Source of the DNA: a virus
Lineage: Duplodnaviria > Heunggongvirae > Uroviricota > Caudoviricetes
DNA length: 64,000 nt
IMG/VR virus record: IMGVR_UViG_3300044825_003843
Coordinates: 1 to 64,000 of that record
Reading direction: 5' to 3' (one strand)
A model generated the notes under the pieces. The model searched no databases and was not told the origin of the DNA. It saw only the letters and a program-made list of their open reading frames with translations. This document shows, one piece after another, positions 8,276 to 61,035 of the stretch (position 1 is its first letter; each line of letters begins with the position of its first letter). The position numbers were made by a program, and so were the translations under genes.

Positions 8276-9438
8276 GAAAAACTAAAAGAAAAACTGTTTA
8301 AATTTATAGTCGGTCTTGATAATTTATTTGTATATGTTTCTTTTAAGGTATTTAACAAGGTACCAGTATTGTGATAAATTCTATCGTCAATCAAAAAACA
8401 AAGATTCGGGTATGGGTTCGGTCTATCAACAGAAGCCATAAATTCTACTAAGTTTAACGCTTCTTGATATCTACCTTGAGCGTCCAAAATTTCTACTTTG
8501 TGGAACAGGTGTTCATTTCTATTAGGACAAAAATCTTCAGCAAAATCAAAATATTTGAATGTTTTGTCTTTTTCACCCATGAATTCATATGCTTGTGCCA
8601 TCAAGATTAGTGCAAAATACGCCATTTCATTATTTGATGTTGCAATTGGGTTTTCAGGTGTCCATCCGTGAACTAACTCCAAATACCTTTCGAAATACCA
8701 TATACCCCTCCTCGCATACTCGTCCGAGTGTTGCTTACCAAAAGCTAATTCATCAGGTCTACCATAACAGTCAGTATAACTTTTTGCAATATACCATAAA
8801 TGATATAAATCATGTTTAACTTTATCACCAACAATGTTATCAATTTCCAATTCTAAAGCATCTCTCAGAAACTTTCTTGGAACGTGCCAAGTTTGCCCAT
8901 CTTGAGAAACCCTGTGTCTAAATGATTGAGGTAAAGTTACTCTTTGGAAGTTTTCACCAATATTGGGTAAATGAATAGTTTCATGTCTTTTATCTAATTG
9001 GAAAAACCAAGGTAATTTAGCGTTCCACATCCATGTTCTCATGTATCTTGTACCTCCATTCACAGCATTAACATTCCAACTCTCTACTTTGGTATCATCT
9101 AATATACTCCAATCAAAATCGTTATCAATCTCTAAAGTTTCGTCCGCATCCATTCTCAAAATCCAGTCACAACCATGGTCAGTTTGTAATGCAACTTGTA
9201 AAGTATGATTCCTATTCCAGCCAGGAAAGTTCCATTCAATAAAATAAGTAAACCCTTTGATTCCTTTTTGTTTAAAAAAGGTGTCAATTATTTCTCTCGT
9301 GTTGTCTCCTTTACCATTACATTGTATTACATAATAATCGATATATGGTGCCACAGACTCCAACATTCTTGTTATTGTCGGGGCTTCATCACCGACCATC
9401 GCATTCAAACAAATTTTAGTTTTTTTATTCATATACAT
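8272..9438 (-). CDS. glycosyltransferase (GT-A/GT2-like N-terminal domain) with C-terminal TPR-like region
   Basis: ICLNAMVGDEAPTITRMLESV...YYVIQCNGKGDNTREII and RMDADE (DxD-like); helical repeat C-terminus. Confidence 0.5.
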   Translation of the reverse strand: MYMNKKTKICLNAMVGDEAPTITRMLESVAPYIDYYVIQCNGKGDNTREIIDTFFKQKGIKGFTYFIEWNFPGWNRNHTLQVALQTDHGCDWILRMDADETLEIDNDFDWSILDDTKVESWNVNAVNGGTRYMRTWMWNAKLPWFFQLDKRHETIHLPNIGENFQRVTLPQSFRHRVSQDGQTWHVPRKFLRDALELEIDNIVGDKVKHDLYHLWYIAKSYTDCYGRPDELAFGKQHSDEYARRGIWYFERYLELVHGWTPENPIATSNNEMAYFALILMAQAYEFMGEKDKTFKYFDFAEDFCPNRNEHLFHKVEILDAQGRYQEALNLVEFMASVDRPNPYPNLCFLIDDRIYHNTGTLLNTLKETYTNKLSRPTINLNSFSFSFS

Positions 9439-10672
9439 AATTCATTTTTTGTTCTTCATCATAAAACTTTCTTATGGAAACACTATTTTGAAATTTTTGA
9501 GAGTGTCCTTCTTCTTCTATCCAATTCCAATCAAAAAATCCTAAGTAATTAATTCTTTCATGAATTGCTAAATCATAGTAATCTCTTATTAATCTTGCTC
9601 TTCGATTGATATCCTGAGCGTTGTTGTCTGTTGTAGTGTCTCTACTACTATATTGAAAATATAAAACTTTTTTCACATGTATCATCCTTGTATTCAAAAA
9701 AGTCCTGATGAGTATTTCCAAATCATCTGCTACAGGTGTATTTTTATTGTGTCCTCCGATTTCATGATACAGATTTCTTTCCCACATTCTTACGTGGTTG
9801 GGCATACTAATGTTGAATCTTATAGACAAAGGGTTGATATCAGGATATCTGTGTGCTAATATTTCATTTCCATCAACAGTTTCCCATTCATGTCCAGCAT
9901 AACCAAAATCGAAAAAGTTATCATGTCTTGCATACCAATTACCTGTCCAATCGTGGTCATAATATTTAAACTCACCTGTTTCATAGAACTCACAACAATC
10001 TGAATATAAAAATCCCGCGTCAGGAAATCGTAGAATAGCATCGTCTGCAACCGCCAAACAATTTGTGGTAAGACAATCGTCATGGTCAAGTTCTATTAAC
10101 CAATCACCATCACACAACATTGCCGCTCTATGTTTTGCCAAACCAACATTCCCACCCGTTATTGGATTTAGTTTGTATATTTTAACACGGTAATCTAACG
10201 ACTCTATGTCTTTTAGAATTTTGAAGGTTTCTTCGTTTGGTGAGTCATCAACAACAACCCATTGCCAATTCTTAAGTGTTTGATTTTTTAAACTTTCATA
10301 CGTTCTATAAATTCTTTCACCCGTATTATACGTGGGGGTAAAAATTGAGAACCTTGGTCTTATAACCTCACAGGATTTAAACACGGTTTGACAAACAATA
10401 TCATTAGCCAAAACACTATCAGGTAATTGTTGTTGATAGTATCTATAAATCCTAAGTAATCTGTAATTGTTTATTGGAATATCCTGACCAAACGAGATAA
10501 TTAAGTCAGGTTTATACTTTGTGAAATCAAGTTCCATGTTACCATCATAAGTAAGTGAATAAACTTCAACACTTTCATGTAACCCTTCCTCCCAATATAC
10601 ATCAGAAGTCAATGTGTGGTGACCAATTCGGTCCCAACCATATACAATAGCCGTAGGTTTTTTTGTTTTCAT
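9425..10672 (-). CDS. family 2 glycosyltransferase
   Basis: FSIFTPTYNTGERIYRTYESLKNQTLKNWQWVVVDDSPNE ... IELDHDD (GT2 DxD motifs). Confidence 0.7.
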   Translation of the reverse strand: MKTKKPTAIVYGWDRIGHHTLTSDVYWEEGLHESVEVYSLTYDGNMELDFTKYKPDLIISFGQDIPINNYRLLRIYRYYQQQLPDSVLANDIVCQTVFKSCEVIRPRFSIFTPTYNTGERIYRTYESLKNQTLKNWQWVVVDDSPNEETFKILKDIESLDYRVKIYKLNPITGGNVGLAKHRAAMLCDGDWLIELDHDDCLTTNCLAVADDAILRFPDAGFLYSDCCEFYETGEFKYYDHDWTGNWYARHDNFFDFGYAGHEWETVDGNEILAHRYPDINPLSIRFNISMPNHVRMWERNLYHEIGGHNKNTPVADDLEILIRTFLNTRMIHVKKVLYFQYSSRDTTTDNNAQDINRRARLIRDYYDLAIHERINYLGFFDWNWIEEEGHSQKFQNSVSIRKFYDEEQKMNYVYE

Positions 10673-21780: not shown

Positions 21781-21788
21781 TTTTTTGT

Positions 21789-21860
21789 TGCGTGAGTAAG
21801 AATCGAACTTACGACCTAAAGGTTATGAGCCTTCCGAGCTACCGCTGCTCTATCACGCGA
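21789..21860 (-). tRNA. tRNA-Met (anticodon CAT), initiator-like
   Basis: 72-nt cloverleaf CGCGTGA-TA-GAGC-AGCGGTA-GCTC-G-GAAGG-CTCATAA-CCTTT-AGGTC-GTAAG-TTCGATT-CTTAC-TCACGCA-A; C1:A72 mismatch and A11:U24 typical of bacterial initiator tRNA. Confidence 0.8.
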
Positions 21861-32033: not shown

Positions 32034-33068
32034 ATGTCAACTTGGAAAGATTATATTGAAGAATTCAACTCAGGAGATACAGACTTTTTAGGAAACTTTG
32101 GAGATGATATTGGTCTGTTCGTAGATTTAATAACTCAGAAAGGATTACTTAAATACTTGAACGTTAATGCAAGTATGGAACCTGAAGTTGAGAATAAAGT
32201 TGTGTTGGCCTTTTATGAACATCACATGCCAAGTTATATAGAATTTTTACAAGAGAATTTGAGTGATGTAGAATTTGAAAATGGAGTGTTTTATTTTGTC
32301 GGTGACCCTTCAGATTTATCTACTCTTTTTGATGAAGGTAGAAATACCTTGCAGAAAAAAACTGTAGAAAAAATTTTGAGTGGTGAAGGTTTAGACTTTG
32401 AATTTTTTGACTACACAACAGACAACGTTTATTCCGACGTTGTTGAAGAATTGAATATTGTAAATTTGCAATCCTTATATGAAGCCGTTCTTTACTTTTC
32501 CAAAGACGTTCAAATAGAACCAAGTACAGAACTTTTAGAATTGATTGCTGAAGAACAAGGTCACCCTGATTTTGTAATCATAGACAAAAACAATGTTGAA
32601 AGAATTGTCGATGACAGAGAAACTTTCGAATCACTTCTTAATGATGAATTATCTGATTTGAAGGGTAATCTCATAAACCTTCATCATTGGGCTTACAATT
32701 CAGCATATGAAGAAGAAGTTTACGAGGAAGTTTGGAATCAGCTTGATAAGTTTTTTGTCACTGACCAAAAGAAATGGGTTTCAGTACCAATGTATACAGG
32801 ACCTGCTGGTTCACAAAAGATTGCAAGTACTATAGAAAGAATGAAATTACCAATAAGAAATTTACCCGAAATAATAAATGATTATCTAAGATGGAATGTG
32901 GAAGCTACATATCCAGAATCAGTTAGGTATTATGGTAACTACTCAGCAATATTGACATGGGTTCTCGACGAAAACCGTGATTATTCAAAGGTATATCCCC
33001 CTGATTTTCCTGATAGTTCTAAAGTTGATAAAAACATCAACGAAATGTTCAACGATTATATATACTAA
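32034..33068 (+). CDS. hypothetical acidic protein
   Basis: 344-aa ORF, only long plus-strand gene near the fibre module. Confidence 0.5.
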
Positions 33069-35152
33069 CCATTAAGTTTGTCTTCTATCTTTTTTAACTT
33101 ATCCTCTACCTGAGTCAATAATCTATATTGTTCTTTAATTGCTTGAGTGCAAATTGCAACAATCTCAGAGTATTTTACTTTATATCCATTTTTTTCGTCA
33201 CCATATACAACCTGTGGTAAAACCTCTTGAAGTTCTTGTGCAATGAAACCTATATCATCATCGTCTTTCTTGTGAATATGATATTTTTCTGGGTTCTTCC
33301 ACTTAAATCTAACACCCCTCAATTTTTGGATTATACTAACAGCATCCTCTATTACTTTGATATTTTTCTTCATCCTTGAATCAGACGGTGGTCCGATTGC
33401 ACCTGTTCTACCTGTCTGTCCAATATTACCTTGAGCACCTTGAGCTCCTTGTGGACCAGGTCCTCCACTTTGTCCTTGAGCTCCTTGGGCACCTGTTGCT
33501 CCTTGTGCACCTTGAGGACCCGCGGGATTACCCGCAAGGTTATTACCTTGGTCACCAAAATTTCCTTGAGCACCCTGAGTACCTGGTGGGCCAGGAGTTG
33601 GTTGACCTTGAGCACCTTGAAATCCTTGACCACCAACAGGTCCTTGAGCACCTTGAGCACCGGGGGGACCTGTATTCCCTTGTGGTCCAGGTGCTCCTAT
33701 AGGACCTGGTGCACCTGGCGGACTAAGTCCTGGTGCTCCTTGAGCCCCTTGAGCACCTTTCGAACCCTGACTTCCTGCGACTCCAGGAGTTCCTTGTGCA
33801 CCTTGTGGTCCTTGTGGTCCGAGAGCTCCAGGATTACCTGTAGGTCCTTGAGCACCTTGTGCTCCTTGCCCTCCTTGAGCTCCTTGAGGTCCCTGAGCTC
33901 CTTGAGCTCCCTGAGCACCCTGAGCACCCTGAGGTCCTAAAGCACCTTGTGCACCTTGACCACCCCGTGGGCCTTGAGGACCCGCAGTCAAAGATTGAGC
34001 TCCTTGAGCACCTTGACCTCCTTGAGCACCAACAGCTCCTTGTGCTCCCTGCGCTCCCTGAGCTCCCTGTCCTCCTTGAGCACCTTGAGCGCCTTGACCT
34101 CCTTGAGCACCTTGACCTCCTTGAGCACCTTGGCCTCCTTGAGCACCTTGACCTCCTTGAGGACCAACAGCTCCCTGCGCTCCTTGTATTCCTTGAGCAC
34201 CTTGACCACCTTGAGCTCCTTGAGCACCTTGACCTCCTTGAGCACCTTGTATTCCTTGAGCACCTTGACCTCCTTGAGCGCCTTGAGCACCTTGACCTCC
34301 TTGAGCACCTTGAGCACCTTGACCTCCCTGAGCACCTTGAGCACCCTGTCCTCCTTGAGCACCCTGTCCTCCTTGAGCACCCTGTCCTCCCTGTGCTCCA
34401 ATGTTTGCCCCTGGGGCACCTGTATTTCCTTGAGCACCTTGAGCTCCTTGAGCACCTTGAGCTCCTGTTGCTCCTTGAGCACCTTGAGCACCCTGTCCTC
34501 CTTGAGCACCCTGTCCTCCTTGGGCACCTTGTCCTCCTTGGGCACCAACGTTACCCACAGCACCCTGAGCACCTTGACCTCCCTGAGCACCTTGAGCACC
34601 CTGTCCTCCTTGAGCACCCTGTCCTCCTTGAGCACCCTGTCCTCCTTGAGCACCCTGTCCTCCTTGAGCACCTTGAGCTCCTGTTGCTCCTTGAGCACCT
34701 TGTCCTCCTTGAGCACCTTGTCCTCCTTGAGCACCAACGTTACCCGCAACACCCTGAGCACCTTGACCTCCCTGAGCACCTTGAGCACCTTGTGCACCTT
34801 GAGCACCTTGACCTCCCTGAGCACCTTGAGCACCTTGTGCTCCTTGGGGCCCTTGTGTACCTGAAGAACCTTTTGCACCTTGAGCTCCTTGGGGTCCTTG
34901 TGGTTGTCTGTTACCCTGCCATGCCGTCGTATTAATCAAAGTTCCAGCATCATTAATAAGAGTATTGGTTAATCGTAAATCTGCATTTGTAACTCTGAAA
35001 TTAGGATAAGTATTATCCAAGGACAGATAAGTAGTAACCCCTCTTCTAAATTGTAAACTAGCTGAGGTTACAACCAAATCAGTTTGGGTCGTTGCAGAGT
35101 CATAAAAGGAAATCGTCCCCGTACCAGGCGTTATCTTAATATCTTCAGGCAA
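33065..35152 (-). CDS. collagen-like triple-helix repeat tail fibre protein with C-terminal intramolecular chaperone (peptidase S74-like) domain
   Basis: about 480 aa of G-X-Y repeats ([10 protein letters not shown]...) and C-terminal [32 protein letters not shown] (SDxRxK self-cleavage motif). Confidence 0.85.
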
Positions 35153-38100
35153 TCAATTTTGTTTTTAAATATTTTATTTTTTCATAAATAGAATTTATCC
35201 TTTTTTGTTGTTCTTGAATTGAACCGATACAAAGAGCAACAATTAAACCATATTCCAATCTTTTATATCCATCGTCCTCCGTCCACACAACTTGTGGTAA
35301 TACCATTTCTACCTCCTGAGCAATATATCCAACAGAATCTTTTTCATAATAGTGTTCTTGAGCTGGGTTGAGATAGTTTTGAACTTTATCATTTTTTTCA
35401 TCCCAAGTAAAGTAAACACTTTGAAGTTTCAAAATTGTATCAATACTGTTTTTCAAAGTCTGAACTTTTGACTTCAATCTTCTATCTGAAGTAGGTCCAG
35501 TTGGTCCTTGCGGTCCTTGAGAACCTTGAACCCCTTGAGCACCTTGAGCTCCCTGTGGTCCCTGTGGACCAGCACCTGCAGTTGCAGGTGCACCAACACT
35601 ACCTTGAGCTCCTTGTGCACCTTGAGCCCCTTGCGGGGCACTTAACCCTTGGGTTCCTTGAGCACCTTGAGCACCCTGAGGTCCTCGAGGTCCAGTTGGA
35701 GAGGCACCCTGAGCACCTTGTGCACCCTGAACCGTACCTTGCGGTCCAGCAGCTCCCGAGTTACCTGTCACACCTTGAGCTCCTTGTGGACCTTGTGGAC
35801 CTTGGGCACCTTGAACACCTTGAACACCTTGTGGTCCCTGAGCACCTTGCCCACCTTGGGCACCTTGGGCACCTTGGGCACCTTGTGTAGTATTTGTAGT
35901 TCCTGGTGCGCCAGGATTACCGACCACAGCACTTGCACTTCCTTGGGCTCCTTGAGGTCCTTTCGCACCTTGCGCTCCTGTGTTAGCACCTGACGCACCT
36001 GTGTTACCTGTCCCTCCAGGGACACCTTGAGCTCCGGTCGCACCCACGGGTCCTTGAAGTCCTTGAGCTCCTTGGTTTCCTTGGAATCCTTGTGGTCCTT
36101 GTGGTCCAGGTGCTCCAGGCGTTGTGTTGGCAGCACCTTGAGCACCTTGTCCTCCTTGCGCCCCTTGAGCACCCTGAGCACCTGTATTTGCACCCTGAGC
36201 TCCTTGAGCACCTGTCGCTCCTTGCACCCCTTGAGCACCCTGAGCACCTGTATTTGCACCCTGAGCTCCTTGAGCACCTTGAGCTCCTTGTTGTCCAACT
36301 GCGCCGGTATTTAGACCCTGAGCTCCCTGAGCGCCTGTTGCTCCTTGTATCCCTAATGCACCCTGAGCACCTGTATTTGCCCCTTGAGCACCTTGTGCAC
36401 CTTGTCCTCCCTGAGCACCTTGTGCACCTTGTCCACCCTGAGCTCCTGTATTCGCACCTTGAGCACCTTGTGCACCTTGTGCACCTTGTGCACCTTGTAC
36501 ACCTTGTGCACCTGTATTTACACCTTGAGCTCCTTGAGCCCCTGTTGCTCCTTGAGCTCCTTGTCCACCCTGAGCACCTGTATTTGCCCCTTGAGCACCT
36601 TGTGCACCTTGTCCTCCCTGAGCGCCTTGTGCTCCCTGAGCACCTGTATTTGCTCCCTGAGCTCCCTGAGCACCTTGTCCTCCCTGAGTGCCTTGTGCTC
36701 CCTGAGCACCTGTATTTGCTCCCTGAGCACCTTGAGCTCCTTGAGCACCTTGAGCTCCTTGAGCACCTTGAGCTCCTGTGTTTGCTCCCTGAGCACCTTG
36801 AGCTCCCTGAGCACCTTGTCCTCCCTGAGCACCTTGAGCACCTGTATTTGCTCCCTGAGCACCTTGTCCTCCCTGAGCACCTTGTCCTCCCTGAGCACCT
36901 TGAGCTCCTGTGTTTGCTCCCTGAGCACCTTGTGCTCCTTGCACACCAATACTTCCTTGAGCACCTTGGGCTCCCTGCACACCAATACTTCCTTGAGCAC
37001 CTTGAGGTCCTTGTGACCCCTGAGCACCTTGAGCTCCTTGTCCTCCTTGGAACCCAATAATATTTGTTGTTGGTCCTACCCAAATGGCAGAACTATTAAC
37101 AAATAAAGTATTTCCAACATACAATCCACCTGAATTTAGGCTAGCCCCTGATGATAATATATTTTGTGGCCCTATTTGAAATCCCGTGGAAACTGTTGAA
37201 GATGAGAGTTGTAAAAACAAATTTTCAACATTCAACTGTAACTTGTTTGTACCATCATCGAATATGATGAATGGTTTCAGAACTGAAGCATTACCTTGAG
37301 GATATATTATTATATTAGCCATTTATTTTACTTTCTAATTCTTTTACTTCGATAAGAAGTTTTTCTATTTCTCTTTGATGCTCTTTTATCGCTTCAACCA
37401 CAACCGCGTTCAATTTGGTGTATTCCACGTAATAATATCCAGACTTATTGACACCAACGGCCTCAGGGAAATATTTCTTAAGGTCTTGGGCTATCAATCC
37501 GATAGACTGTAGTTTACCTACCTGAGAAAGATAATCATATTTGTTAGGGTCTATTTTATCATTCCATTCAAATTGAATTACTTTCAGTTTATTAATACTC
37601 TCTAACACATTTTCAAGGTTAGATACTTTCTTTTTCAATCTTTTATCTGAGAAACCTGGTGGACCTGGGAAACCAGGGTCCCCTTTAGCACCTTGAGCCC
37701 CTTGAGCACCCGTATTTCCTGTCGGTCCTCCACTTGCAGGACCTTGAGCTCCTTGTGCACCTTGAGCTCCGGTGTCCCCTTGAGCACCAAATTTTGCACC
37801 TGTAGCACCTTGAGCACCTTGTGCACCTTGAAACCCTGTTGGTCCTTGAGGTCCGAGAGTTCCTGGAGCACCTTGAGCCCCATTGGGTCCGAATGCACCT
37901 GGTCCTCCTTGAAAACCTATATTGCCTGGCGCACCTGGCCTTCCGACGAATCCTTGTGCTCCTTGTAGTCCTTGTATTCCTGTAGCACCTTGAGCCCCTT
38001 GAGCACCTTGACCTCCTTGGGCCCCTTGAGCACCTGTAGGACCATTAGGTCCAGGTGGACCTTGGACTCCTTGTGCTCCTGCAGCTCCCTGAGCACCTTG

Positions 38101-39130
38101 TGGACCTTGTTGTCCCTGAGCACCTTGCGGTCCCAAAGGGCCTTGAGCACCTTGTGGACCTGTGGGTCCTGCGGCTCCTTGGAAATTTTGAGGTCCTTTC
38201 GCACCTTGAGCACCTTGTGAACCTTGAGCACCTTGAATACCCGGAGGTCCAATAGGTCCTATAGGTCCTTGAGCACCTTGAGCACCTTGAGCACCTTGAG
38301 CACCTTGTCCACCTTGAGCACCTTGTGGACCTTTGGAACCCTGAGCTCCCTGAGCTCCTTGTGCTCCCTGAGCTCCTTGTGCTCCTTGTGGACCTTTGGA
38401 ACCCTGAGCTCCCTGAGCACCTTGTGGCCCTTGAGCTCCTTGTGGTCCTGATGGTCCTTTGGCCCCTTGAGCCCCTTGAGCTCCTTGACCTCCTTGAGCT
38501 CCTTGTGGACCCCGTGGACCTTGAGCACCCACAGAACCCTGTGCACCTGTACTTCCCACAGCACCTTGAGCTCCTTGAGGTCCCCGTGGACCTTGAGCAC
38601 CTTGACCACCTTGAGCACCCTGCCCTCCTTGAGCTCCTTGTGGACCTCTTGGTCCTTGAGCACCTTGTCCTCCTTGAGCTCCTTGCGGACCTTGAGCTCC
38701 TTGAGGTCCCCGTGGACCTTGAGCACCTTGAGCACCTTGGCCACCTTGAGCACCTTGAGCTCCTTGTGGACCTCTTGGTCCTTGAGCACCTTGTCCACCT
38801 TGAGCTCCTTGTCCACCTTGGGCTCCTTGAGGTCCGGCAAAACCTATATTCCCTTGAGCACCTTGCCCACCTTGAGCACCTTGAGCACCTTGTGGCCCTT
38901 TCGAACCCTGTGCACCCTGAGCTCCCTGAGCACCCTGACCTCCTTGAGCACCTTGTGGCCCTTTCGAACCCTGTGCACCCTGAGCTCCCTGAGCACCCTG
39001 ACCTCCTTGAGCACCTTGTGGCCCTTTCGAACCCTGTGCACCTTGAGCACCTTGTCCTCCCTGAGCACCTTGAGCGCCTTGTCCTCCCTGAGCACCTTGA
39101 GCACCGATATTTCCTATAAATCCCACATTT
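33400..39130. repeat. highly repetitive 9-nt periodic DNA (GXY-encoding ccttgagca/ccttgtgca units) spanning three genes
   Basis: visible tandem near-identical 9/18/27-nt units; all six frames open. Confidence 0.9.
35145..37322 (-). CDS. collagen-like tail fibre protein with C-terminal S74-like chaperone domain (paralog 2)
   Basis: [20 protein letters not shown] repeats; C-terminal [30 protein letters not shown]; overlaps neighbours by 8 nt. Confidence 0.85.
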
Positions 39131-39447
39131 CCTGGCGCACCTTGAGCCCCTTGTCCTCCCGCAATATTTGTGGTTGGTCCGACCCAATTCAAAGTATTAT
39201 TTAATATCTGTATTCCACCAACACTCATGAAATTTCTAATATTCAAAGTGTATCCTGAAATATTAGTGTTCGAAGGATTAACTGATAATATATTACTTTG
39301 AGTTGCAGAACTAAAAGTCACTACAGCACCCGATAAAACTTTCAATGAAATGGGTACATCACCGACATTATTTATAAAGTCGATAAAAGGAATTCTGTCA
39401 GGTTGTTGAACCAACCGACTCGGAACTATTTTAATGTTTAGACCCAT
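37315..39447 (-). CDS. collagen-like tail fibre protein with C-terminal S74-like chaperone domain (paralog 3)
   Basis: [16 protein letters not shown] repeats; C-terminal [30 protein letters not shown]. Confidence 0.85.
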
Positions 39448-39569: not shown

Positions 39570-40232
39570 ATGAACTTATCAGGTAAGACAAACCTAAACC
39601 TTTATGTAAACTTTTTATTAGAAAGTTTACCATCGAATGTTGAAAGTTTTTTTGAAGTGTGTGATTGTAACAATTTTGTGGTGGTCAAAGGTGAAACCTC
39701 TCATACTGAAGTACTGAACTTAATAGACTTGAATAAAAAATTCGAAGAAAAATATCCTGAAACTAAATTGAAAGGAACCATAGATTTGATAAAATATAAT
39801 GTAGTATTTGAACCGAAAAAAACCTATGAATTTATTTTTTATAACACACCGAATCTGAAGTTAAGTGCCGATAGTAATAATTCTTTATTTACATTATCTG
39901 AATTTCCATGGGGTTCGTCTTGGAATCAAGGGAAACTATTATATTTTTATTTCAAATTTATAACTTATAAAATACCGTCAACCTATGTGTTCGATTGGCT
40001 AAAATATAAAGTAGAGGTTAGTTCGGATAATCAAATTGATTTCACGATAGAAGATAACTTTGTTAATAATCACAACGATGTTTTGAAATCTGCAATCTTG
40101 GATTGTTTCGATTTCAATTTGTATGATTTTGAAACTCACGCAAGAAAAATGGATTTAGAAAATTTAATTCTAAACCCATTCAATAAAGAAGATATTTCAG
40201 ATATCTCTGTAAAAGATTTTATAATCGTTTAA
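39570..40232 (+). CDS. hypothetical protein
   Basis: 220-aa ORF. Confidence 0.45.
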   Translation: MNLSGKTNLNLYVNFLLESLPSNVESFFEVCDCNNFVVVKGETSHTEVLNLIDLNKKFEEKYPETKLKGTIDLIKYNVVFEPKKTYEFIFYNTPNLKLSADSNNSLFTLSEFPWGSSWNQGKLLYFYFKFITYKIPSTYVFDWLKYKVEVSSDNQIDFTIEDNFVNNHNDVLKSAILDCFDFNLYDFETHARKMDLENLILNPFNKEDISDISVKDFIIV

Positions 40233-40525
40233 CCTAACAATTTTTTTCGATGTCCTTGAATGATTTTCATGGCTTCTTTAAGTTCATTATAATCCCTCTC
40301 AGGTGCATATAGGAAACTTTCATATTTGTCTCCTTCACTTTCAATCAGAAGCAGAGCCGGAATGTATTCATTTTCCGTAATTTCAACGTAAGTTTCGTAT
40401 TCCTCATCGTACTCTTCAATGTCTCTATCGTGGAATTCTACATTTTCTTCCTGTAACATTTTTTTAAAATCATCACAGAAAGGACATCCTTTCATTGTAT
40501 AAACAACTACCGTTAGTTCTTTCAT
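40229..40525 (-). CDS. glutaredoxin/NrdH-like redoxin
   Basis: VVVYTMKGCPFCDDFKKML (CPFC active site at start of helix 1). Confidence 0.55.
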   Translation of the reverse strand: MKELTVVVYTMKGCPFCDDFKKMLQEENVEFHDRDIEEYDEEYETYVEITENEYIPALLLIESEGDKYESFLYAPERDYNELKEAMKIIQGHRKKLLG

Positions 40526-40526
40526 T

Positions 40527-40844
40527 TTAATTCAATAAACTAATTAATTCCGGTGCAGACATTACACCAGTCTTAGAATGGTATTCTTTACCATTCTTAT
40601 AAAATTTTACTGTCGGTACACTTCTTATACCTAATTCATTCATTGCAAATTCTCTATCTTGGTCGATATCGAACTTATAGAAAGCGTAGTCAGAATTTTT
40701 ACTTTCAGTAAGCATGGTTGAAGCTTTCTCCATATTATTCAACATTACTTTACAAGGTCCACACCAAGTGGCGTATAAATCCAAAACAAAGTTTTCATTT
40801 GAGTTCATTTTTTCTTTGAGTTGTTCTGATGTTAATTGTGTCAT
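40527..40844 (-). CDS. thioredoxin
   Basis: FVLDLYATWCGPCKVM (WCGPC), SVPTVKFYKNGK. Confidence 0.85.
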   Translation of the reverse strand: MTQLTSEQLKEKMNSNENFVLDLYATWCGPCKVMLNNMEKASTMLTESKNSDYAFYKFDIDQDREFAMNELGIRSVPTVKFYKNGKEYHSKTGVMSAPELISLLN

Positions 40845-43114: not shown

Positions 43115-44512
43115 TTATAAGTCATCATCTTCTAACGCAAAGTCCCACATACCCTCTTTCTTCCAATTGCTTCCTTGTGGTGTTCTTGCCTTTTCTTTAA
43201 TCTTTTGTGGAACCTCCACGTTATTTGAACCCATCAAGTTCAACATAAGGATTTTCGGCATATCTGCAATACACTCAGGTACTGTTCTCAACTCAGGACA
43301 ATTCAAGATTGTAATAAAGTTGAGTTTTCTCAATTGACAAATAGAATCAGGTATACTACTAACACAATTATTTAAAATTATTGTCTTCAAGTTTTGGAAA
43401 CGAGAAATACTTTCAGGTATTTTTATGTTTACATTTAAGTTTTTGTCGTTGTTGGTCATTGAAAATGATTTTATGCTGTTAGGAATAGAATCAATTAGTT
43501 CGTCCAACCCGTAAAGAGCAATAAATTTACCAACAGGACCTGTTGTGAAACTATCCACTACAAACTTTTCACCACCAACGGTCAAACCTTTGGCAAACTC
43601 ATGTTTGAAAATATCTTTAAGCTCTGACATAGAACCGTTCAACAATTGAACCAAATCAACACTTCTATCATGAACGTCCATGAATTGATTAGAAGGGAAA
43701 TGGAACTGATATCTTTCAGCAGGTAGATTTGATTTTATACCTCTCTGTCCTTCCCAATTATTTGGGATTACAACATATAATGGACCGTCTTTAATATATC
43801 TGTCGAACCAACTCAGACCAGGGGCAGATGTACACCATCTTGTTTCACCCTTCGATGGTTCTAAGTAATTACCTCCGTAGAAACAAGCTGCATCTTTACC
43901 CAACGCACCGGTATCGGAAACTCTTGCTACTGTCCATTGGTCTCCCCTGAATATTACATCACCACCAGGGTGTTCATATGTTTCTTGAGCCTTCTTTTTT
44001 TCTTCTGCGGATGCTTTAACTTTTTCTAATGAGAAATCCTTCACTTTATCATAAAGTTGTGATGGCTTCATTTTATTCAAGTCTCTCTCACCTTCAATTC
44101 TACCCTTGAACCTCTTAAACTTCATTAAATCATTAGTTAATTTGAAGAGGTCTTCAAAGTAAACTTCTCTTTGTCTGAGTAATGCAGACTTGTATTGTTC
44201 ACTTTGTGGGTCTAGTGAAAGATACTCCTCAGGTATTTCAGGCTTCAAATAATGTCTTATAATCCATTCAGAGTATCCACCTGGTTTAATCTGCATCAAT
44301 TCCTTTTCGTCAGCCGTCGCAGGGTCAACATTATTCATCTTTGTATCTGGGTCTGCTTGTATTAGTTGCAGAAACATATCTTTACTCAAAAGCGGTTTCA
44401 CTTTTTTTCCTTCTTTATCTAATTTCGGTTTTGTGTATTTGTCAAGAAGTGCATCCATTTTAGCACCTTCTACAATTAGACTTTTCAATATGGTAGTAAA
44501 CCTTGTTGCCAT
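43115..44512 (-). CDS. hypothetical protein with C-terminal leucine-rich repeats and a shared WCT domain
   Basis: LRR-like IPNSIKSFSMTNNDKNLNVNIKIPESISRFQNLKTIILNNCVSSIPDSICQLRKLNFITILNCPELRTVPE; domain shared with 29978..31729; conserved promoter motif upstream. Confidence 0.5.
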   Translation of the reverse strand: MATRFTTILKSLIVEGAKMDALLDKYTKPKLDKEGKKVKPLLSKDMFLQLIQADPDTKMNNVDPATADEKELMQIKPGGYSEWIIRHYLKPEIPEEYLSLDPQSEQYKSALLRQREVYFEDLFKLTNDLMKFKRFKGRIEGERDLNKMKPSQLYDKVKDFSLEKVKASAEEKKKAQETYEHPGGDVIFRGDQWTVARVSDTGALGKDAACFYGGNYLEPSKGETRWCTSAPGLSWFDRYIKDGPLYVVIPNNWEGQRGIKSNLPAERYQFHFPSNQFMDVHDRSVDLVQLLNGSMSELKDIFKHEFAKGLTVGGEKFVVDSFTTGPVGKFIALYGLDELIDSIPNSIKSFSMTNNDKNLNVNIKIPESISRFQNLKTIILNNCVSSIPDSICQLRKLNFITILNCPELRTVPECIADMPKILMLNLMGSNNVEVPQKIKEKARTPQGSNWKKEGMWDFALEDDDL

Positions 44513-54874: not shown

Positions 54875-55672
54875 TTATAAATAATCAAACAAAGAACCTG
54901 ACTCATTTCTAAGTTTTCTAAGTGCCTTTTCTTTGATTTGTCTGACCCTTTCTTTAGTTAATTCGAAATCATTTCCAATGTCTTCTAATGTTCTTGTATT
55001 ACCTGATAAACCGAAATAATCTTCAATTATTATACGTTCTCTTTCGTCCAAAACATCGAGCATCGATAGTAATTTATCTTTTAAAGTATGTTCGGTATTT
55101 AATCCTGAATCAGGACTTTCGACGTTAGGGTTTATTACAACATCCATCAAGGTATCTCCGTCTTCATTAAGTGGTGTTTCAAGGTCAACAGTATATGGTA
55201 AGTTAGCAAACCTATCAGATAACTCTTCTCCATTTATTTCTTGTTCCTTTTTTGCCTTATGTAATTCTTGAACTACGTTCACAGGGAACCTAATGGTTCT
55301 CGCGTTCTCATTTAGCGACTGTAATATAGATTGTCTAATCCACCAAACAGCATATGATATAAACCTCAAATTTTTCGACCAATCAAAGTTCTCTATCGCC
55401 TTTAAAAGACCATAGTTACCTTCAGCAATTAAATCTGAAAGGTCTAGTCCTTGGTTTTGATATTGTTTACTTACAGTAATAACAAACCTCAGGTTACCTT
55501 CTAATATTTCTTTTTTAATCTCTTCCTTTTGTCTTGGAGTTACACTTCCAGAAAGCATAAGTTTTGCCAACTCTTTTTCTCTTTCAGGTGTCATGACAGT
55601 CAACTTCCTGATGTCTTTAAGATAAACTGAAATCTCTTCTTGATTAATTGGAATTACTGATTTTTCTTTCAT
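54875..55672 (-). CDS. RNA polymerase sigma-70 family factor
   Basis: region 2 LRFVITVSKQYQNQGLDLSDLIAEGNYGLLKAIENFD...FISYAVWWIRQSI; region 4 TLEDIGNDFELTKERVRQIKEKALRKLR. Confidence 0.85.
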   Translation of the reverse strand: MKEKSVIPINQEEISVYLKDIRKLTVMTPEREKELAKLMLSGSVTPRQKEEIKKEILEGNLRFVITVSKQYQNQGLDLSDLIAEGNYGLLKAIENFDWSKNLRFISYAVWWIRQSILQSLNENARTIRFPVNVVQELHKAKKEQEINGEELSDRFANLPYTVDLETPLNEDGDTLMDVVINPNVESPDSGLNTEHTLKDKLLSMLDVLDERERIIIEDYFGLSGNTRTLEDIGNDFELTKERVRQIKEKALRKLRNESGSLFDYL

Positions 55673-57727: not shown

Positions 57728-58660
57728 TTAATAAGTTGAGTATTTTTTTTCGAATTCGTTAAGAAAATCAATTTTTTCCTGATAACCTAAGAATAAAGGT
57801 GCAAAGTCTATTGGAATTTCACCTGGTCCTGTTCTTTCATGAATCATTTTGGAAAGTACATGGTCCCTTACTTTATAGAACATATCGTCTCTTCTTGCAA
57901 TAACATAATCACCATTCTCAACGGTATTTGAAGCTCTTTTCTGAATACCGAATGATGTTCCATCTCTAACCCACATATCACTAGCAGAAGTAAACCAATA
58001 GGATAATTCATCATTTTGGTGCCCCCATAAAAAATCGTAATGTATTTTTAAATCTTCACCAACTATAACTTCAGGGTCGTATCTATAACTTTCAGCAACT
58101 TTTCTTGAGAAAAGAACTAACCTTGCATAGTTTGGGTTACTTATACCATCAACTAGCGGGTCTTTACCAAAAAACATATTACCTCTGTAATCAATGTAAT
58201 TTGCCCCCCAAAGACTGCCGAAATTACCTGATGCGAGTTGAGCATCGTTTCCATTTTTTCTTGGAAAAATTGAATCGCAAGGACATGTTGCCATCGCATC
58301 CGTGTTCGGATATTTTTTCAAATGTCTTTCTACTTGTTGTAAAAAGGTTGGATAAAAGAAATCATCTCCATCTAATTGTGTTAGATGTGTAAAGTCTTTA
58401 GTCATGAAATATTCGAATACAGTATTCTTACCTGTTGAAGGCGTGCCATCTGACTTGGTGACCACATAGGGTATATGGTTATTTTCACAATATTTTGCCA
58501 TTTGACTCACAAAACTACTATCTACACTATTGATTACCAAATGAACTTCATACTTTATAGAATAGTTTCTTTGGTTTAATGCTGTTTGTATACATCTAAT
58601 TGCTCTTGAGACATCCGAAGATACCAGAGGACAAATCATTAATTTTATTTCTTTACACAT
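57728..58660 (-). CDS. putative glycosyltransferase (GT-A-like)
   Basis: ICPLVSSD...EVHLVINSVD and LDGDDFFYP (DxD). Confidence 0.35.
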   Translation of the reverse strand: MCKEIKLMICPLVSSDVSRAIRCIQTALNQRNYSIKYEVHLVINSVDSSFVSQMAKYCENNHIPYVVTKSDGTPSTGKNTVFEYFMTKDFTHLTQLDGDDFFYPTFLQQVERHLKKYPNTDAMATCPCDSIFPRKNGNDAQLASGNFGSLWGANYIDYRGNMFFGKDPLVDGISNPNYARLVLFSRKVAESYRYDPEVIVGEDLKIHYDFLWGHQNDELSYWFTSASDMWVRDGTSFGIQKRASNTVENGDYVIARRDDMFYKVRDHVLSKMIHERTGPGEIPIDFAPLFLGYQEKIDFLNEFEKKYSTY

Positions 58661-61035
58661 TATTGACTTACTTTTGAAATGTTATCGCTTTTTGTTATTC
58701 TAACGACGTTATTAGCCCAATTATTGACTAATGGGTTATGAGTTATGACAAATATTTTTTCAAAATAATCCCTCATTTTAGTAAAAAATTCTCCCACCAT
58801 TTCTAAGTTTTCATTACTTATTTTACCGAAAACTTCATCCCAAACTATAATATTTGGTTTAGGTAGAGAACAGACTTTAGAAAGAACTGCCCTCAAAGCC
58901 ATAGCCGCAATACTTCTTTCGTATCCCGAACCTGAGGTTATTAATTTCTCAATACCGGTATTATTATCAATCATAATAAATTCTACCTCATTTTTTTCAT
59001 TGATTCTAATCTCCAAATTGAAGTATGCAGAATCCATCATCAACCTTTGAAGTTCTTGATTTATCAACGGCATCATGGTTTTCATTATATTTTTTGATAT
59101 TCCATTTTTACCGAAGACATCCAAGTATATTTTATAAACTTTCTCTCTTTCAAATTCCTCGACAATTTTAGTAATATTTTCATGATTTTTACTAATTCTG
59201 TCTTGGTAATTTTTGATACTAATTTGGTTGGAGGTAATTATTCTCTCATATCCTCTCTTCTCATTAATCAACTCATCAATTCTCATATTAGCCTTGATTA
59301 GTTGCCCATCTATTTCTTTATTCTTTTTAATCTTATCCTGAACTTCAAGGAACCTCCTTTTCTTATCTTTGAGTTGGTCTAACTTGATAGTAATAGATTC
59401 CAAGGTAATCTCAAACTTTTCTTTGATAAGTTTATTTTTTTCATACTCATCAAAGTCCTTCTTGAGCTGTATATATGATTTTTCCTTGTAATCTAAATCT
59501 TTCAGTTGTTTAGATAAGTTATCTACTTTTTTCTCCCAATCACCCAATTCATCAATCTTTTGTTTGGTCAAAGCCGCTTCCATCAGTTTTATACCACAAT
59601 GTTCACACTGTACCCCATTACCAAACTTTTTTATCAGTTGTTCAATATCCTCCACCTTATTCTGAGCAAGAATCAAATCATTATTTACTTTCTTGAATGA
59701 CTCCTTTATCTCATCGTGTTTATCTTCATGATAAAACTCTTTAGGTTCTACAATTTTTACCTCACTAATTTTTCTATTGGTATCAATTTTTCTTGCTTCA
59801 AAATCATTTATTTCAGAGTCCAAAACTACAGGATTCAAAACAACTAGCTCTTGTTCCAAATCATTGAATTTAGACTTTAGAAGGTTTTCTTTATAGTCTT
59901 GTCCCTTCTTTAGTCTACTATCAACGTCGTCGATGTTTTTATTGGAGCCTTCTATTTCAGACTGTAAACCTTCAATGTCTTTTGTGAGAGACTCTATTTC
60001 CTGTTTCAATGATTCCCTGTCATACAAGTTGGAAATCATACCTTTAGAGAAATTCGAATATAATTCTTTTCCTATTTCTTCTTTCTTTTTCAAAAATTCC
60101 AATCCGAGAAATCTTGATAAAACTTGTCCTCTTGCGGTTGGCTTTGATTCCAAGAGTTCTTCCAAATTAGAAGCTGTTGTCAGAATTGTCATCAAGAAGT
60201 CGTCCATAGTCCCGATTGACTTTTTGATAAAGTCTTCGGTTTCTCTTCTTTGTTCTCCGGTAAAATTCTGAAGTTGACCATCAGCTAGTTTTTTGAAAAA
60301 GTCCAATTCAGTTTTAACAGTCCAATCACCGTTTTTACTTTTTTTCCTTTCAATTTGTCGGACTAAAATATAGTCTTCTCCATCGATTTGAATCTCACCT
60401 CTAACTGAAACTTTATTCTTATCAGTAAACCTGTTGAATATTTCTTCGGCTTTGCTTGTCTTTGTTGTCGTATTAAAGAACAAAAAGATTAGTAAGTCTA
60501 CAGTTAAAACTGTTTTACCTCCGAAGTTTGGAGGGTTAGATTCGACAACAGTAATTCCATTACATTTATCAAAATCTAATACTTGATTTTCTCCGTAAGA
60601 AAGGAAGTTAGAAAATTCAATCTTCTTTATATACCACCTTTTGAAAGCAGTAACACTTGTGTCTTCGCTAATTATTTTATTTTCAACTGCCAAGTCAATA
60701 TTCATCACATCTTCGAAAGATTGGTCTAATCCTTTCGATAAAAGATAACTTCTAATCAACTCTCTTTGATAATTTTTATCTAAGATATTGAAAGATACAT
60801 CAACAGTTTGTTGGTTCTCCTCTGTAGATTTTACTTTGGTGATAACATTAACGTTAGTTGTAATATACTTTTTTTGAAAGTATTGTTTAACTGACTTCAA
60901 TCTTTCCTGTGTGAAGTTCTCGGGTGTATCTTCCCAAATTACTTGCACATAAGGATTGTCTAAACTCTCAATATCAATTTTTTTTGACATAGTGTTATAG
61001 TTAAATTCTGGAGTTGGATTGAATAAATCCCACAT
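58660..61035 (-). CDS. SbcC/Rad50-like recombination ATPase (T4 gp46-like)
   Basis: N-terminal P-loop region NFGGKT, long coiled coil with CxxC zinc hook (CEHCG), C-terminal signature SGSGYERS, Walker B IIVWDEV, H-loop ITHN. Confidence 0.75.
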   Translation of the reverse strand: MWDLFNPTPEFNYNTMSKKIDIESLDNPYVQVIWEDTPENFTQERLKSVKQYFQKKYITTNVNVITKVKSTEENQQTVDVSFNILDKNYQRELIRSYLLSKGLDQSFEDVMNIDLAVENKIISEDTSVTAFKRWYIKKIEFSNFLSYGENQVLDFDKCNGITVVESNPPNFGGKTVLTVDLLIFLFFNTTTKTSKAEEIFNRFTDKNKVSVRGEIQIDGEDYILVRQIERKKSKNGDWTVKTELDFFKKLADGQLQNFTGEQRRETEDFIKKSIGTMDDFLMTILTTASNLEELLESKPTARGQVLSRFLGLEFLKKKEEIGKELYSNFSKGMISNLYDRESLKQEIESLTKDIEGLQSEIEGSNKNIDDVDSRLKKGQDYKENLLKSKFNDLEQELVVLNPVVLDSEINDFEARKIDTNRKISEVKIVEPKEFYHEDKHDEIKESFKKVNNDLILAQNKVEDIEQLIKKFGNGVQCEHCGIKLMEAALTKQKIDELGDWEKKVDNLSKQLKDLDYKEKSYIQLKKDFDEYEKNKLIKEKFEITLESITIKLDQLKDKKRRFLEVQDKIKKNKEIDGQLIKANMRIDELINEKRGYERIITSNQISIKNYQDRISKNHENITKIVEEFEREKVYKIYLDVFGKNGISKNIMKTMMPLINQELQRLMMDSAYFNLEIRINEKNEVEFIMIDNNTGIEKLITSGSGYERSIAAMALRAVLSKVCSLPKPNIIVWDEVFGKISNENLEMVGEFFTKMRDYFEKIFVITHNPLVNNWANNVVRITKSDNISKVSQ

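What the first reader, a model, noticed from the sequence alone, without database searches (positions are those of the whole stretch)
33065..39447. Tandem triplet of collagen-like fibre genes, each ending in a self-cleaving chaperone domain, embedded in nearly 6 kb of periodic 9-nt repeat DNA
Three overlapping paralogues of about 700 aa each have a distinct N-terminal domain of about 90 aa, then about 450-500 aa of G-X-Y repeats, then a C-terminal domain of about 110 aa with the SD(S/R/K)R(M/L)K...I..L..V.F.W motif of endosialidase-type intramolecular chaperones. The near-identical 9-nt DNA units across the three genes make a recombination or slippage hotspot. This could generate fibre-length or host-range variation. 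All six frames are open here, so automated gene callers will mis-annotate the region.
Basis: partly seen in the sequence, partly recalled or inferred. Interest (0 to 1): 0.6.

Follow-up and report, generated by a model that had tools for sequence, protein, structure and literature searches.

The report
Three length-matched phage collagen fibre genes
Three adjacent phage genes each encode a long collagen-like rod ending in a self-cleaving folding domain, and related phages keep the three rods almost exactly equal in length, which suggests they assemble together, possibly as a three-different-chain collagen not yet described outside animals.

Summary
Three overlapping minus-strand genes lie at 37315-39447 (C), 35145-37322 (B) and 33065-35152 (A). 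Each encodes a ~90-aa N-terminal domain, 504-522 aa of Gly-X-Y repeats and a C-terminal Peptidase_S74 chaperone domain with the Ser/Lys dyad intact.

Collagen followed by S74 is a known fibre architecture, so on that level this is an ordinary new member. Some first-reader details are overstated. The N-domains are homologous to each other. The repeat DNA spans 4.6 kb with 61-85% matches. Five frames are open, not six.

The new result is comparative. The same three-gene cassette, never more than three collagen genes, sits at one syntenic position in about 50 contigs of an uncultured large-phage lineage. Collagen length ranges from 98 to 362 triplets between genomes (about 65-72 in two-gene loci). 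Within a genome the three genes match: the median spread is 3 triplets and the window has 167/167/166. Indels are coordinated across the genes. The arrays share no long DNA identity, so gene conversion does not explain the match.

Only the B chain has a one-residue insertion every 7 triplets. I infer in-register co-assembly, most likely an A·B·C heterotrimer. Cleavage, virion location and heterotrimer formation are untested.

The parts
37315..39447 (-). Gene C (710 aa), first gene of the cassette: N-domain, collagen, S74 domain
   Evidence: ORF. Pfam Collagen E 2.8e-60 and Peptidase_S74 47.7 bits.
39160..39447 (-). C N-terminal domain (aa 1-96), type N_C, ending in [10 protein letters not shown]
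   Evidence: Orthologues occur in all related loci. AF2 model is all-beta with pLDDT 71 and has no fold match.
37648..39159 (-). C collagen array: 504 aa, 166 triplets, with a 63-nt (7-triplet) higher-order repeat carrying GSK/GPR every 7 triplets
37315..37647 (-). C S74 intramolecular chaperone domain (Ser600-Asp-Lys-Arg-Leu-Lys605 onward) plus stop codon
35145..37322 (-). Gene B (725 aa), second gene
   Evidence: ORF. Pfam Collagen E 1.4e-42 and Peptidase_S74 42 bits.
37056..37322 (-). B N-terminal domain (aa 1-89), type N_B ([11 protein letters not shown]...[11 protein letters not shown])
35490..37055 (-). B collagen array: 522 aa, 162 triplets, with 14 one-residue insertions (mostly GAN-T-GAQ) spaced mostly 7 triplets apart and a 66-nt repeat
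   Evidence: The same feature is present in 36 related arrays.
35145..35489 (-). B S74 domain (Ser612-Asp-Arg-Arg-Leu-Lys617 onward) plus stop codon
33065..35152 (-). Gene A (695 aa), third gene, with a TTG start
   Evidence: ORF. The start position corresponds to ATG (L004) or GTG (most relatives). Pfam Collagen E 7e-44 and Peptidase_S74 59.4 bits.
34898..35152 (-). A N-terminal domain (aa 1-85), type N_A ([10 protein letters not shown]...AWQGNRQPQ)
33386..34897 (-). A collagen array: 504 aa, 163 triplets, 9/18-nt periodicity
33065..33385 (-). A S74 domain (Ser590-Asp-Ser-Arg-Met-Lys595 onward) plus stop codon
37315..37322 (-). 8-nt overlap of the C stop and B start (ATGGCTAA)
   Evidence: Relatives have a TAATG overlap.
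35145..35152 (-). 8-nt overlap of the B stop and A start (TTGCCTGA)
   Evidence: Relatives have GTGGCTGA or ATGCCTGA at the same place.
39570..40232 (+). Conserved 220-aa gene of unknown function, transcribed divergently from the cassette in all relatives
   Evidence: No Pfam or PHROG hit.
32034..33068 (+). Conserved 344-aa gene of unknown function, convergent with gene A, with overlapping stop codons

Best explanation
The three genes form an ancient, translationally coupled cassette in a lineage of uncultured large phages. The organism assignment rests on phage-type neighbouring genes and syntenic viral contigs.

Each gene encodes one chain with three parts: a small beta-rich N-terminal domain, a collagen rod of about 167 triplets (about 144 nm at 0.286 nm per residue), and a C-terminal S74 intramolecular chaperone.

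By analogy with endosialidase, T5 and S16 tail-fibre chaperones, the S74 domains would trimerise and nucleate folding of the triple helix from the C-terminal, Pro-richer end. They would then cut themselves off at the conserved Ser, using the Ser/Lys dyad.

The three collagen arrays are held at the same number of triplets within every genome while varying several-fold between genomes. I therefore infer that the three chains are assembled in register with each other. The most likely form is one A, one B and one C chain in a single heterotrimeric triple helix. The three paralogous S74 domains (acidic C type, basic-headed A type, near-neutral B type) would act as the chain-selection module, much as the C-propeptides or C1q heads do in animal heterotrimeric collagens.

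The product would be an adhesion fibre on the virion. In relatives one chain adds a Cys-rich tip or a PA14 lectin domain. In this window the mature fibre would be the N-domains plus a bare rod.

Shown here: architecture, conservation, length matching, coordinated indels, and absence of DNA homogenisation.

Inferred: trimerisation, cleavage, heterotrimer formation and virion location.
For: Architecture:
- Pfam Collagen and Peptidase_S74 are both above cut-off in all three proteins.
- The S74 profile aligns to a solved phage long-tail-fibre distal subunit with its chaperone (6f45, E 4e-16), to another phage tail fibre protein and to MYRF, with S-D-x-R-x-K in register.
- The Ser and the Lys five residues later are kept in 96 of 97 distinct related C-terminal domains.

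Conservation:
- All 15 IMG/VR loci and 28 of the loci held in all (viral and metagenome scans together) carry the full three-gene cassette. No locus has more than three collagen genes. The cassette always lies between the same flanking genes.
- The three N-types and three C-types each have orthologues everywhere.

Length matching:
- There are 24 distinct length tuples, from 98/98/98 to 362/361/359 triplet-equivalents.
- The window has 167/167/166, with the A and C arrays both exactly 504 aa.
- The median within-genome spread is 3 triplets (2%), and 13 of 24 tuples fall within 3.
- Pairwise r is 0.98-0.99. Column-shuffle p is at most 5e-6.

Coordinated change:
- L005 and L006 differ by about 3 triplets in each of the three genes.
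- Compared with the window, its closest relative L020 (87% nt identity over the best 3.8-kb match) has +32 aa in B and +29 aa in A.
- Chains with inserts of 180-313 aa still keep a similar triplet count (L010 222/221/219; L018 147/140/137; L011 173/159/171).

Not gene conversion:
- The longest exact DNA shared between arrays is 30-42 nt, and 27-mer sharing is 1.2% or less.
- There is no clear lag-0 excess of synonymous matches.

Coupling: start/stop overlaps are conserved, and the A-type gene has a conserved non-ATG start.

Charge complementarity of the S74 types: C net -6.4, first 30 aa of A +5.4, B near neutral.

Adhesin role: there is a PA14 insert (E 2.6e-11) and a Cys-rich tip domain in relatives, and there are PHROG tail-fibre matches.

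The N-to-C domain connectivity is permuted in some lineages (class II) without loss of any domain type, and this is reproduced in independent assemblies. That would be neutral for a heterotrimer.
Against: - No experiment or multimer model tests heterotrimer formation.
- All solved S74 domains I know of are homotrimers (from knowledge).
- The B chain alone has a one-residue insertion every 7 triplets. This fits naturally in a B3 homotrimer. In an A·B·C helix it would require 14-40 single-chain bulges.
- Eight of 24 length tuples differ by more than 6 triplets (for example 131/160/145 and 100/141/119). Assemblies of one phage type also differ from each other, so either assemblies collapse repeats or the constraint is soft.
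- The cassette is not next to any recognisable capsid or tail gene within the 64-kb window.
- PHROG tail-fibre hits are driven largely by the low-complexity collagen part.
- The class II permutation has the form an assembler mis-traversal through repeats would give, although it recurs in independent samples.
Confidence: 0.5

Rival explanations
1. Each gene makes its own homotrimeric fibre (A3, B3, C3), as all characterised phage collagen-like and S74-bearing fibres do. The equal lengths are selected because the three fibres act side by side, for example bundled laterally in register or attached around one site and reaching one surface together. The three S74 types are kept distinct to prevent mixed trimers.
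For: [quoted passage not shown]
- A one-residue insertion repeated every 7 triplets in the B chain alone is sterically simplest if all three chains of a helix carry it.
- All three chain types have a 7- or 14-triplet periodicity. That could line up features along one face for lateral packing.
- The looser matching in a third of loci is easier to tolerate for separate fibres.
Against: - Matching within 1-3 triplets (about 1-3 nm in 84-310 nm), together with coordinated small indels, is much tighter than flexible independent fibres would need.
- The gene number is exactly three in every complete locus.
- Only one chain carries the tip or lectin domains.
- A homotrimer of the C-type S74 domain would carry about -19 net charge, and the A-type head about +16.
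Confidence: 0.33
2. The equal lengths carry no functional meaning. They would result from concerted evolution between tandem paralogues (gene conversion or unequal crossing-over) or from assembly artefacts in repeat DNA.
For: - The arrays are repeat-rich. Exact repeats within a gene reach 58-101 nt.
- Short-read assemblies break or collapse here.
- There is a weak collinear similarity between the C and B arrays at lag +1 (z about 2).
Against: - Arrays within a genome have different repeat structures (9/18, 66 and 63 nt). They share at most 42 nt of exact sequence and 1.2% or less of 27-mers, so they have not been homogenised.
- Assembly errors would break equality rather than create it.
- Equality is reproduced in independent samples (L014/L086, L009/L060, L065/L066, L015/L017/L087).
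Confidence: 0.05
3. The proteins are collagen-like but are not receptor-binding tail fibres. They could be capsid or neck 'hair' fibrils that decorate the particle, as in giant viruses, or a non-virion structure made in the infected cell.
For: - No recognisable tail or baseplate genes lie within 64 kb. The neighbours are redox, methylase and nuclease genes.
- The window's proteins have no distal globular domain after predicted cleavage.
- The N-domain has no fold match to known fibre anchors.
Against: - S74 domains are characteristic of tail fibres and spikes (PHROG annotations).
- Relatives carry PA14 and Cys-rich domains typical of adhesins.
- This rival concerns location and is compatible with either assembly model.
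Confidence: 0.12

Closest known systems
Endosialidase-type C-terminal intramolecular chaperone domains (Pfam PF13884, MEROPS S74) of phage tail fibres and spikes
   Same: - C-terminal position and an HMM match above the Pfam cut-off.
- S-D-x-R-x-K with the Ser and the Lys five residues later.
- A residue-by-residue alignment to a solved phage long-tail-fibre distal subunit (6f45) and to MYRF.
   Different: - Here the domain directly follows a collagen helix rather than a beta-helix or a receptor-binding tip.
- Three diverged paralogues (32-37% identity in the window) with different net charges are always present together.
- Cleavage has not been shown.
Collagen-plus-Peptidase_S74 fibre proteins of polinton-like viruses and phages (PMC12220804; PHROG tail-fibre families 6320, 5073, 819)
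   Same: The architecture is the same: collagen repeats fused to a C-terminal endosialidase chaperone, read as trimeric fibres.
   Different: Those are described as single genes. No length-matched three-paralogue cassette, chain-specific periodic insertion or dedicated N-domain family is reported in the papers I could search.
Prophage collagen-like side-tail proteins of E. coli O157:H7 (EPclA/EPclB; PMC3368898)
   Same: They are phage-encoded collagen triple helices with a C-terminal trimerisation module and a likely adhesion-fibre role.
   Different: - EPcl proteins are experimentally shown trimers of one gene product with short collagen domains, a coiled coil and PfN/PfC domains.
- They have no S74 domain and no matched paralogue set.
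Animal heterotrimeric collagens with chain selection by C-terminal non-collagenous domains (C1q A/B/C, collagen I, IV)
   Same: - Three paralogous chains with collagen domains of equal length.
- C-terminal domains positioned to choose the partners.
- Removal of the C-terminal module after folding, as in procollagen.
- A single-chain one-residue Thr insertion exists in the C1q A chain (recalled from knowledge, not tested here).
   Different: - There is no sequence relation in the non-collagen domains.
- Removal would be autocatalytic rather than by a separate protease.
- The chains are Pro-poor and Gln/Ala-rich.
- Heterotrimer formation here is inferred only from length co-variation.
Bacterial collagen-like surface proteins (Scl1/2, BclA)
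   Same: They have long Gly-X-Y arrays whose length varies between strains, and they form surface filaments.
   Different: - They are homotrimers (PMC8968730).
- Their trimerisation domains differ (V domain, C1q-like).
- They have no S74 domain and no matched paralogues.

Membership tests
Peptidase_S74 / endosialidase-type intramolecular chaperone (PF13884) | Profile match above the curated threshold, at the C-terminus | tested here: met
   Scores of 59.4, 42.0 and 47.7 bits against a cut-off of 22. Matches cover aa 590-650, 612-679 and 600-664 of 695, 725 and 710. PDB profile hits are 6f45 at E 4e-16 and MYRF at 5e-5.
Peptidase_S74 / endosialidase-type intramolecular chaperone (PF13884) | Catalytic Ser and a Lys five residues downstream (Ser911/Lys916 in endoNF, from knowledge) | tested here: met
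   SDSRMK, SDRRLK and SDKRLK are present. Both residues are kept in 96 of 97 distinct related domains.
Peptidase_S74 / endosialidase-type intramolecular chaperone (PF13884) | Autoproteolytic release after trimer folding | not testable with these tools
   Needs protein expression with Ser and Lys mutants and mass spectrometry.
Collagen triple-helix repeat proteins (PF01391) | Long uninterrupted Gly-X-Y runs and a profile match above threshold | tested here: met
   E values of 7e-44, 1.4e-42 and 2.8e-60. There are runs of up to 108 triplets and 162-166 triplets per protein.
Collagen triple-helix repeat proteins (PF01391) | Formation of a stable triple helix | not testable with these tools
   Pro is only about 5-10% of the collagen part and GAQ is the dominant triplet. 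Stability must be measured by circular dichroism and melting.
Phage tail fibre proteins | Similarity to annotated tail-fibre families | tested here: inconclusive
   PHROG 6320, 5073, 819 and 8745 match at E 1e-35 to 1e-105. Most matched stretches are the low-complexity collagen or the S74 domain. The N-domain has no annotated relative.
Phage tail fibre proteins | Presence in the virion, on the tail | not testable with these tools
   No structural module is recognisable nearby.
Heterotrimeric collagens (a 'works like' comparison, not homology) | Three distinct chains with collagen domains of equal length | tested here: met
   The window has 167/167/166 triplet-equivalents. The median spread is 3 across 24 lineages ranging from 98 to 362.
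Heterotrimeric collagens (a 'works like' comparison, not homology) | Interruptions at matching positions in the partner chains | tested here: not met
   The periodic one-residue insertions occur in the B-type chain only. In the window they are in phase with K/R triplets of chain C, but chain C is not interrupted there.
Heterotrimeric collagens (a 'works like' comparison, not homology) | Physical association of one chain of each kind | not testable with these tools
   No multimer prediction or experiment is available. The complementary charges of the three S74 types are only suggestive.

The most novel reading that the evidence does not exclude
This cassette encodes a natural heterotrimeric collagen outside animals. 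One A, one B and one C chain would form a single triple helix of about 144 nm. Its composition and register would be set by three paralogous, charge-complementary, self-cleaving S74 chaperone domains. The B chain would contribute a one-residue bulge every 7 triplets (about 6 nm). Phage lineages would tune fibre length from about 56 to 310 nm by compensating repeat-unit indels in all three genes.
Probability: 0.45. Interest if true: 0.85.

Novelty: new variant of a known kind. Interest (0 to 1): 0.68.

Why it matters
Heterotrimeric collagens are regarded as an animal feature. Their chain selection and register control are hard to study and hard to engineer.

A compact microbial system would give a directly testable and potentially portable solution. 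In it, three co-translated chains would be selected by small self-removing domains.

For phage biology, the result defines a conserved fibre module with three properties. Its length is evolutionarily tunable but internally constrained. It is systematically mis-assembled and mis-annotated in metagenomes. Its array lengths could serve as a read-out of selection on fibre reach.

If the homotrimer rival is correct instead, the near-exact length matching of three separate fibres would itself be an unexplained structural constraint.

Tried and rejected
1. Cultured relatives. tblastn of the N-domain against 50,697 phage records found nothing. Flanking proteins gave only distant hits, at 22-32% identity, to huge uncultured phages, SPO1-like phages and PA5oct. 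No characterised relative is available.

3. Gene conversion as the cause of equal lengths. Rejected on k-mer sharing and on the synonymous-site lag analysis.

4. Frameshift fusion of B to A. Rejected because the A start aligns with ATG or GTG starts in relatives, and a fusion would bury an S74 domain mid-protein.

5. Giant-virus origin. Rejected on the sigma-70, SbcCD, methylase and PHROG content and on synteny with IMG/VR phage contigs.

6. Promoter and terminator scan. Only consensus-level matches, not informative.

7. Pfam search of the Cys-rich tip and other inserts of relatives. Only the L011 insert matched, as PA14.

8. In-register periodic features between chains. In the window, B insertions and C K/R triplets stay in phase through a shared 8-step irregularity. 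This may reflect common ancestry of the arrays, so I treat it as suggestive only.

9. Host. One 2.7-kb fragment sits in a Betaproteobacteria MAG. This is too weak to use.

10. Literature. I found no paper describing a length-matched three-gene collagen cassette or a viral or prokaryotic heterotrimeric collagen. The library is incomplete, so absence is not proof.


Full report
**What is there**

The region holds three minus-strand ORFs exactly at the reported limits:
- C: 37315-39447, 710 aa.
- B: 35145-37322, 725 aa.
- A: 33065-35152, 695 aa, TTG start.

Adjacent genes overlap by 8 nt: ATGGCTAA at the C/B junction and TTGCCTGA at the B/A junction. G+C rises from about 32% in the flanks to about 50% across the region.

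Each protein has three parts:
- A ~85-96-aa N-terminal domain.
- A Gly-X-Y region of 504 (C), 522 (B) and 504 (A) residues, containing 166, 162 and 163 triplets dominated by GAQ, GGQ and GPQ.
- A ~106-114-aa C-terminal domain.

Pfam gives Collagen (E 1e-42 to 3e-60) and Peptidase_S74 (42-59 bits, cut-off 22) for all three.

A profile of the three C-terminal domains aligns to a solved phage long-tail-fibre distal subunit (6f45, E 4e-16), to another phage tail fibre protein (8jov) and to human MYRF (7dc3). The S-D-x-R-x-K motif is in register in these alignments.

**Corrections to the description**

- The N-terminal domains are homologous to each other. They are 23-39% identical and share an N-terminal I-x-I-x-P motif and a W-x-G motif (W-V-G-P in B and C) just before the collagen. 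The C-terminal domains are 32-37% identical.
- The collagen-coding DNA totals 4.6 kb, not 6 kb.
- Tandem Repeats Finder sees the 9-nt period at only 64-80% matches (61-85% over all rows of the region). It also finds higher-order periods of 66 nt in B and 63 nt in C.
- The GAQ triplet is written with 11-12 different 9-mers per gene. The longest exact repeats are 58-101 nt within a gene and only 30-42 nt between genes.
- Five of the six frames are almost stop-free across the arrays. The sixth has 68-85 stops.
- Public gene calls in related contigs are wrong-frame or truncated. Database entries for these genes are mostly fragments. Short-read contigs of this same phage end inside gene A. The mis-annotation prediction is therefore borne out.

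**Genomic setting**

The window is phage-like. It contains:
- An SbcC/SbcD-like pair.
- A sigma-70 factor.
- Several DNA methyltransferases.
- Thioredoxin and glutaredoxin.
- A UDP-galactopyranose mutase with two GT2 glycosyltransferases.
- One tRNA-Met.

There is no close relative among 50,697 deposited phage genomes. The best protein hits are 22-32% identical, to huge uncultured phages and jumbo phages. No capsid or tail gene is recognisable within the 64 kb.

**Relatives**

A profile of the N-domain finds only 13 proteins in 5.8 billion clusters, and 75 in 1.84 billion representatives. The match is always at the extreme N-terminus and is followed by collagen.

Scans with the B-type N-domain returned 15 IMG/VR contigs (21-317 kb), 80 metagenome contigs and one MAG fragment.

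Every locus long enough carries the same cassette between the same flanking genes. Three N-domain types and three S74 types are each present once, and no locus has more than three collagen genes.

The start/stop overlaps are conserved. The A-type gene starts with GTG, ATG or TTG at the same position. Ser and Lys of the S74 motif are kept in 96 of 97 distinct domains.

**The main new result: matched lengths**

Collagen length differs greatly between genomes but hardly within a genome. In triplet-equivalents:

| Locus | Three genes, in locus order |
|---|---|
| window | 167/167/166 |
| L009 | 98/98/98 |
| L074 | 119/118/117 |
| L006 | 157/157/156 |
| L012 | 214/216/215 |
| L010 | 222/221/219 |
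| L014 | 269/269/270 |
| L065 | 362/361/359 |

Statistics over the 24 distinct tuples:
- The median spread is 3 triplets (2%).
- 13 tuples lie within 3 triplets and 16 within 6.
- Pairwise correlations are 0.98-0.99.
- None of 200,000 column shuffles reaches the observed median spread.

An earlier 16-locus set gave an intraclass correlation of 0.987.

Changes are coordinated at fine scale:
- L005 and L006 differ by about three triplets in each of the three genes.
- The window's closest relative, L020 (87% nt identity over the best 3.8-kb match), is longer by 32 aa in B and 29 aa in A.
- Chains that carry non-collagen inserts of 180-313 aa still keep a similar number of triplets (L010 222/221/219; L018 147/140/137; L011 173/159/171).

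The arrays are not homogenised:
- They have different repeat structures.
- 27-mer sharing is 1.2% or less.
- There is no convincing excess of synonymous matches at lag 0.

Equal length is therefore maintained by selection, not by gene conversion.

**Further anatomy**

- The collagen attached to the B-type S74 domain carries a one-residue insertion (G-A-N/S, then T or Q, then G). There are 509 such insertions in 36 arrays. The inserted residue is T in 54% and Q in 36%. The spacing is exactly 7 triplets in 68% of cases and 14 in 16%.
- The A- and C-type collagens are nearly uninterrupted.
- In the window, chain C has a GSK or GPR triplet every 7 triplets. These stay in phase with the B insertions through a shared 8-step irregularity.
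- All three chain types show 7- or 14-triplet periodicity in most lineages.
- In most relatives, the chain with the C-type S74 domain has a Cys-rich ~90-aa domain between collagen and S74. The window and its nearest relatives lack it.
- One lineage has a PA14 lectin domain inserted in mid-collagen.
- In some lineages the N-domains are joined to different collagen/S74 units (N_C+Ct_B, N_A+Ct_C, N_B+Ct_A). This is reproduced in independent samples. An assembler mis-traversal would give the same pattern, so I treat it with caution.
- The S74 types differ consistently in charge: C net -6.4, the first 30 aa of A +5.4, B near neutral.

**Interpretation**

The established part is ordinary. These are collagen-like fibre proteins with an endosialidase-type chaperone, an architecture already described for phage and polinton-like-virus fibres (PHROG families).

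By analogy with characterised S74 domains, the C-terminal domains would trimerise, nucleate folding and release themselves at the conserved Ser. The collagen ends nearest the S74 domain are the Pro-richest parts, as expected for a nucleation site.

The unusual part has three elements: exactly three paralogues, translational coupling, and collagen lengths held equal to within about 1-3 nm while evolving from about 84 to 310 nm (about 56 nm in the shortest two-gene loci). The simplest reading is that the chains pair residue by residue, as an A·B·C heterotrimer. The three S74 paralogues would then act as chain selectors.

The main counter-argument is the B-only periodic insertion, which fits a B3 homotrimer more naturally. 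The main rival is therefore three homotrimeric fibres that pack or act in register.

A third of loci match less well, and assemblies of one phage type differ by whole repeat units (123-252 nt). This could be repeat collapse or real polymorphism, and it limits certainty.

**Verdict**

The finding is a genuine feature, and its basic interpretation is largely right though partly overstated. It is a new variant of a known kind. The length-matched three-chain cassette is the point worth following up. Cleavage, virion location, host range and heterotrimer formation remain untested.

Noticed in passing
window 7187-10672 (-): A UDP-galactopyranose mutase (GLF, E 1.6e-74) is followed by two family-2 glycosyltransferases. 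Together these are a phage-encoded galactofuranose glycan pathway. Whether it modifies the Thr-rich collagen fibres is pure speculation.
   Followed up: no
window 40229-40844 (-): Thioredoxin and a glutaredoxin-like gene lie one to two genes upstream of the cassette in all related loci examined. This is curious because the fibre in most relatives carries a Cys-rich domain.
   Followed up: partly
window 39570-40232 (+) and 32034-33068 (+): Two conserved genes of unknown function bracket the cassette in every relative, at 30-42% identity. Neither has a Pfam or PHROG match. The 344-aa gene's stop overlaps gene A's stop, in convergent orientation.
   Followed up: partly
window 43115-44512 (-): A 465-aa ORF has a weak LRR-like signal and 32% identity over 188 aa to an annotated 'structural protein' of jumbo phage PA5oct. 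It is conserved in relatives and is the only hint of a virion gene near the cassette.
   Followed up: no
window 54875-55672 (-), 58660-61035 (-), 62242-63021 (-): A phage-encoded sigma-70 family factor and an SbcC-like/SbcD-like nuclease pair.
   Followed up: no
window 21787-21859 (-): A single tRNA-Met (CAT anticodon).
   Followed up: no
L011 7017-9998 and L040/L041 (first cassette gene): A PA14 carbohydrate-binding domain (E 2.6e-11 in L011) is inserted in the middle of the collagen array of one chain. L040/L041 carry a 180-aa insert of the same size that was not itself scanned. L010, L018 and L065 have other beta-rich inserts of 230-310 aa after the first few triplets.
   Followed up: partly
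L007, L034, L036, L037, L038: Contigs from different samples are 98-100% identical in the unique parts of the genes. They differ in array length by clean in-frame blocks of 123, 126, 129 and 252 nt, which are whole higher-order repeat units. This is either true population length polymorphism or repeat collapse by assemblers.
   Followed up: partly
L003 8451-9224; L004 5888-7894: Public gene calls inside the collagen arrays are spurious wrong-frame ORFs, or the true gene is split by a frameshift. Some database fragments carry misleading names such as 'RecR' or 'Rrp4'.
   Followed up: yes
P0151/P0153 (metagenome proteins): In more distant relatives, the same N-terminal domain is followed by only three or four Gly-X-Y triplets and then a non-collagen C-terminal region. 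The N-domain is therefore a module in its own right.
   Followed up: no
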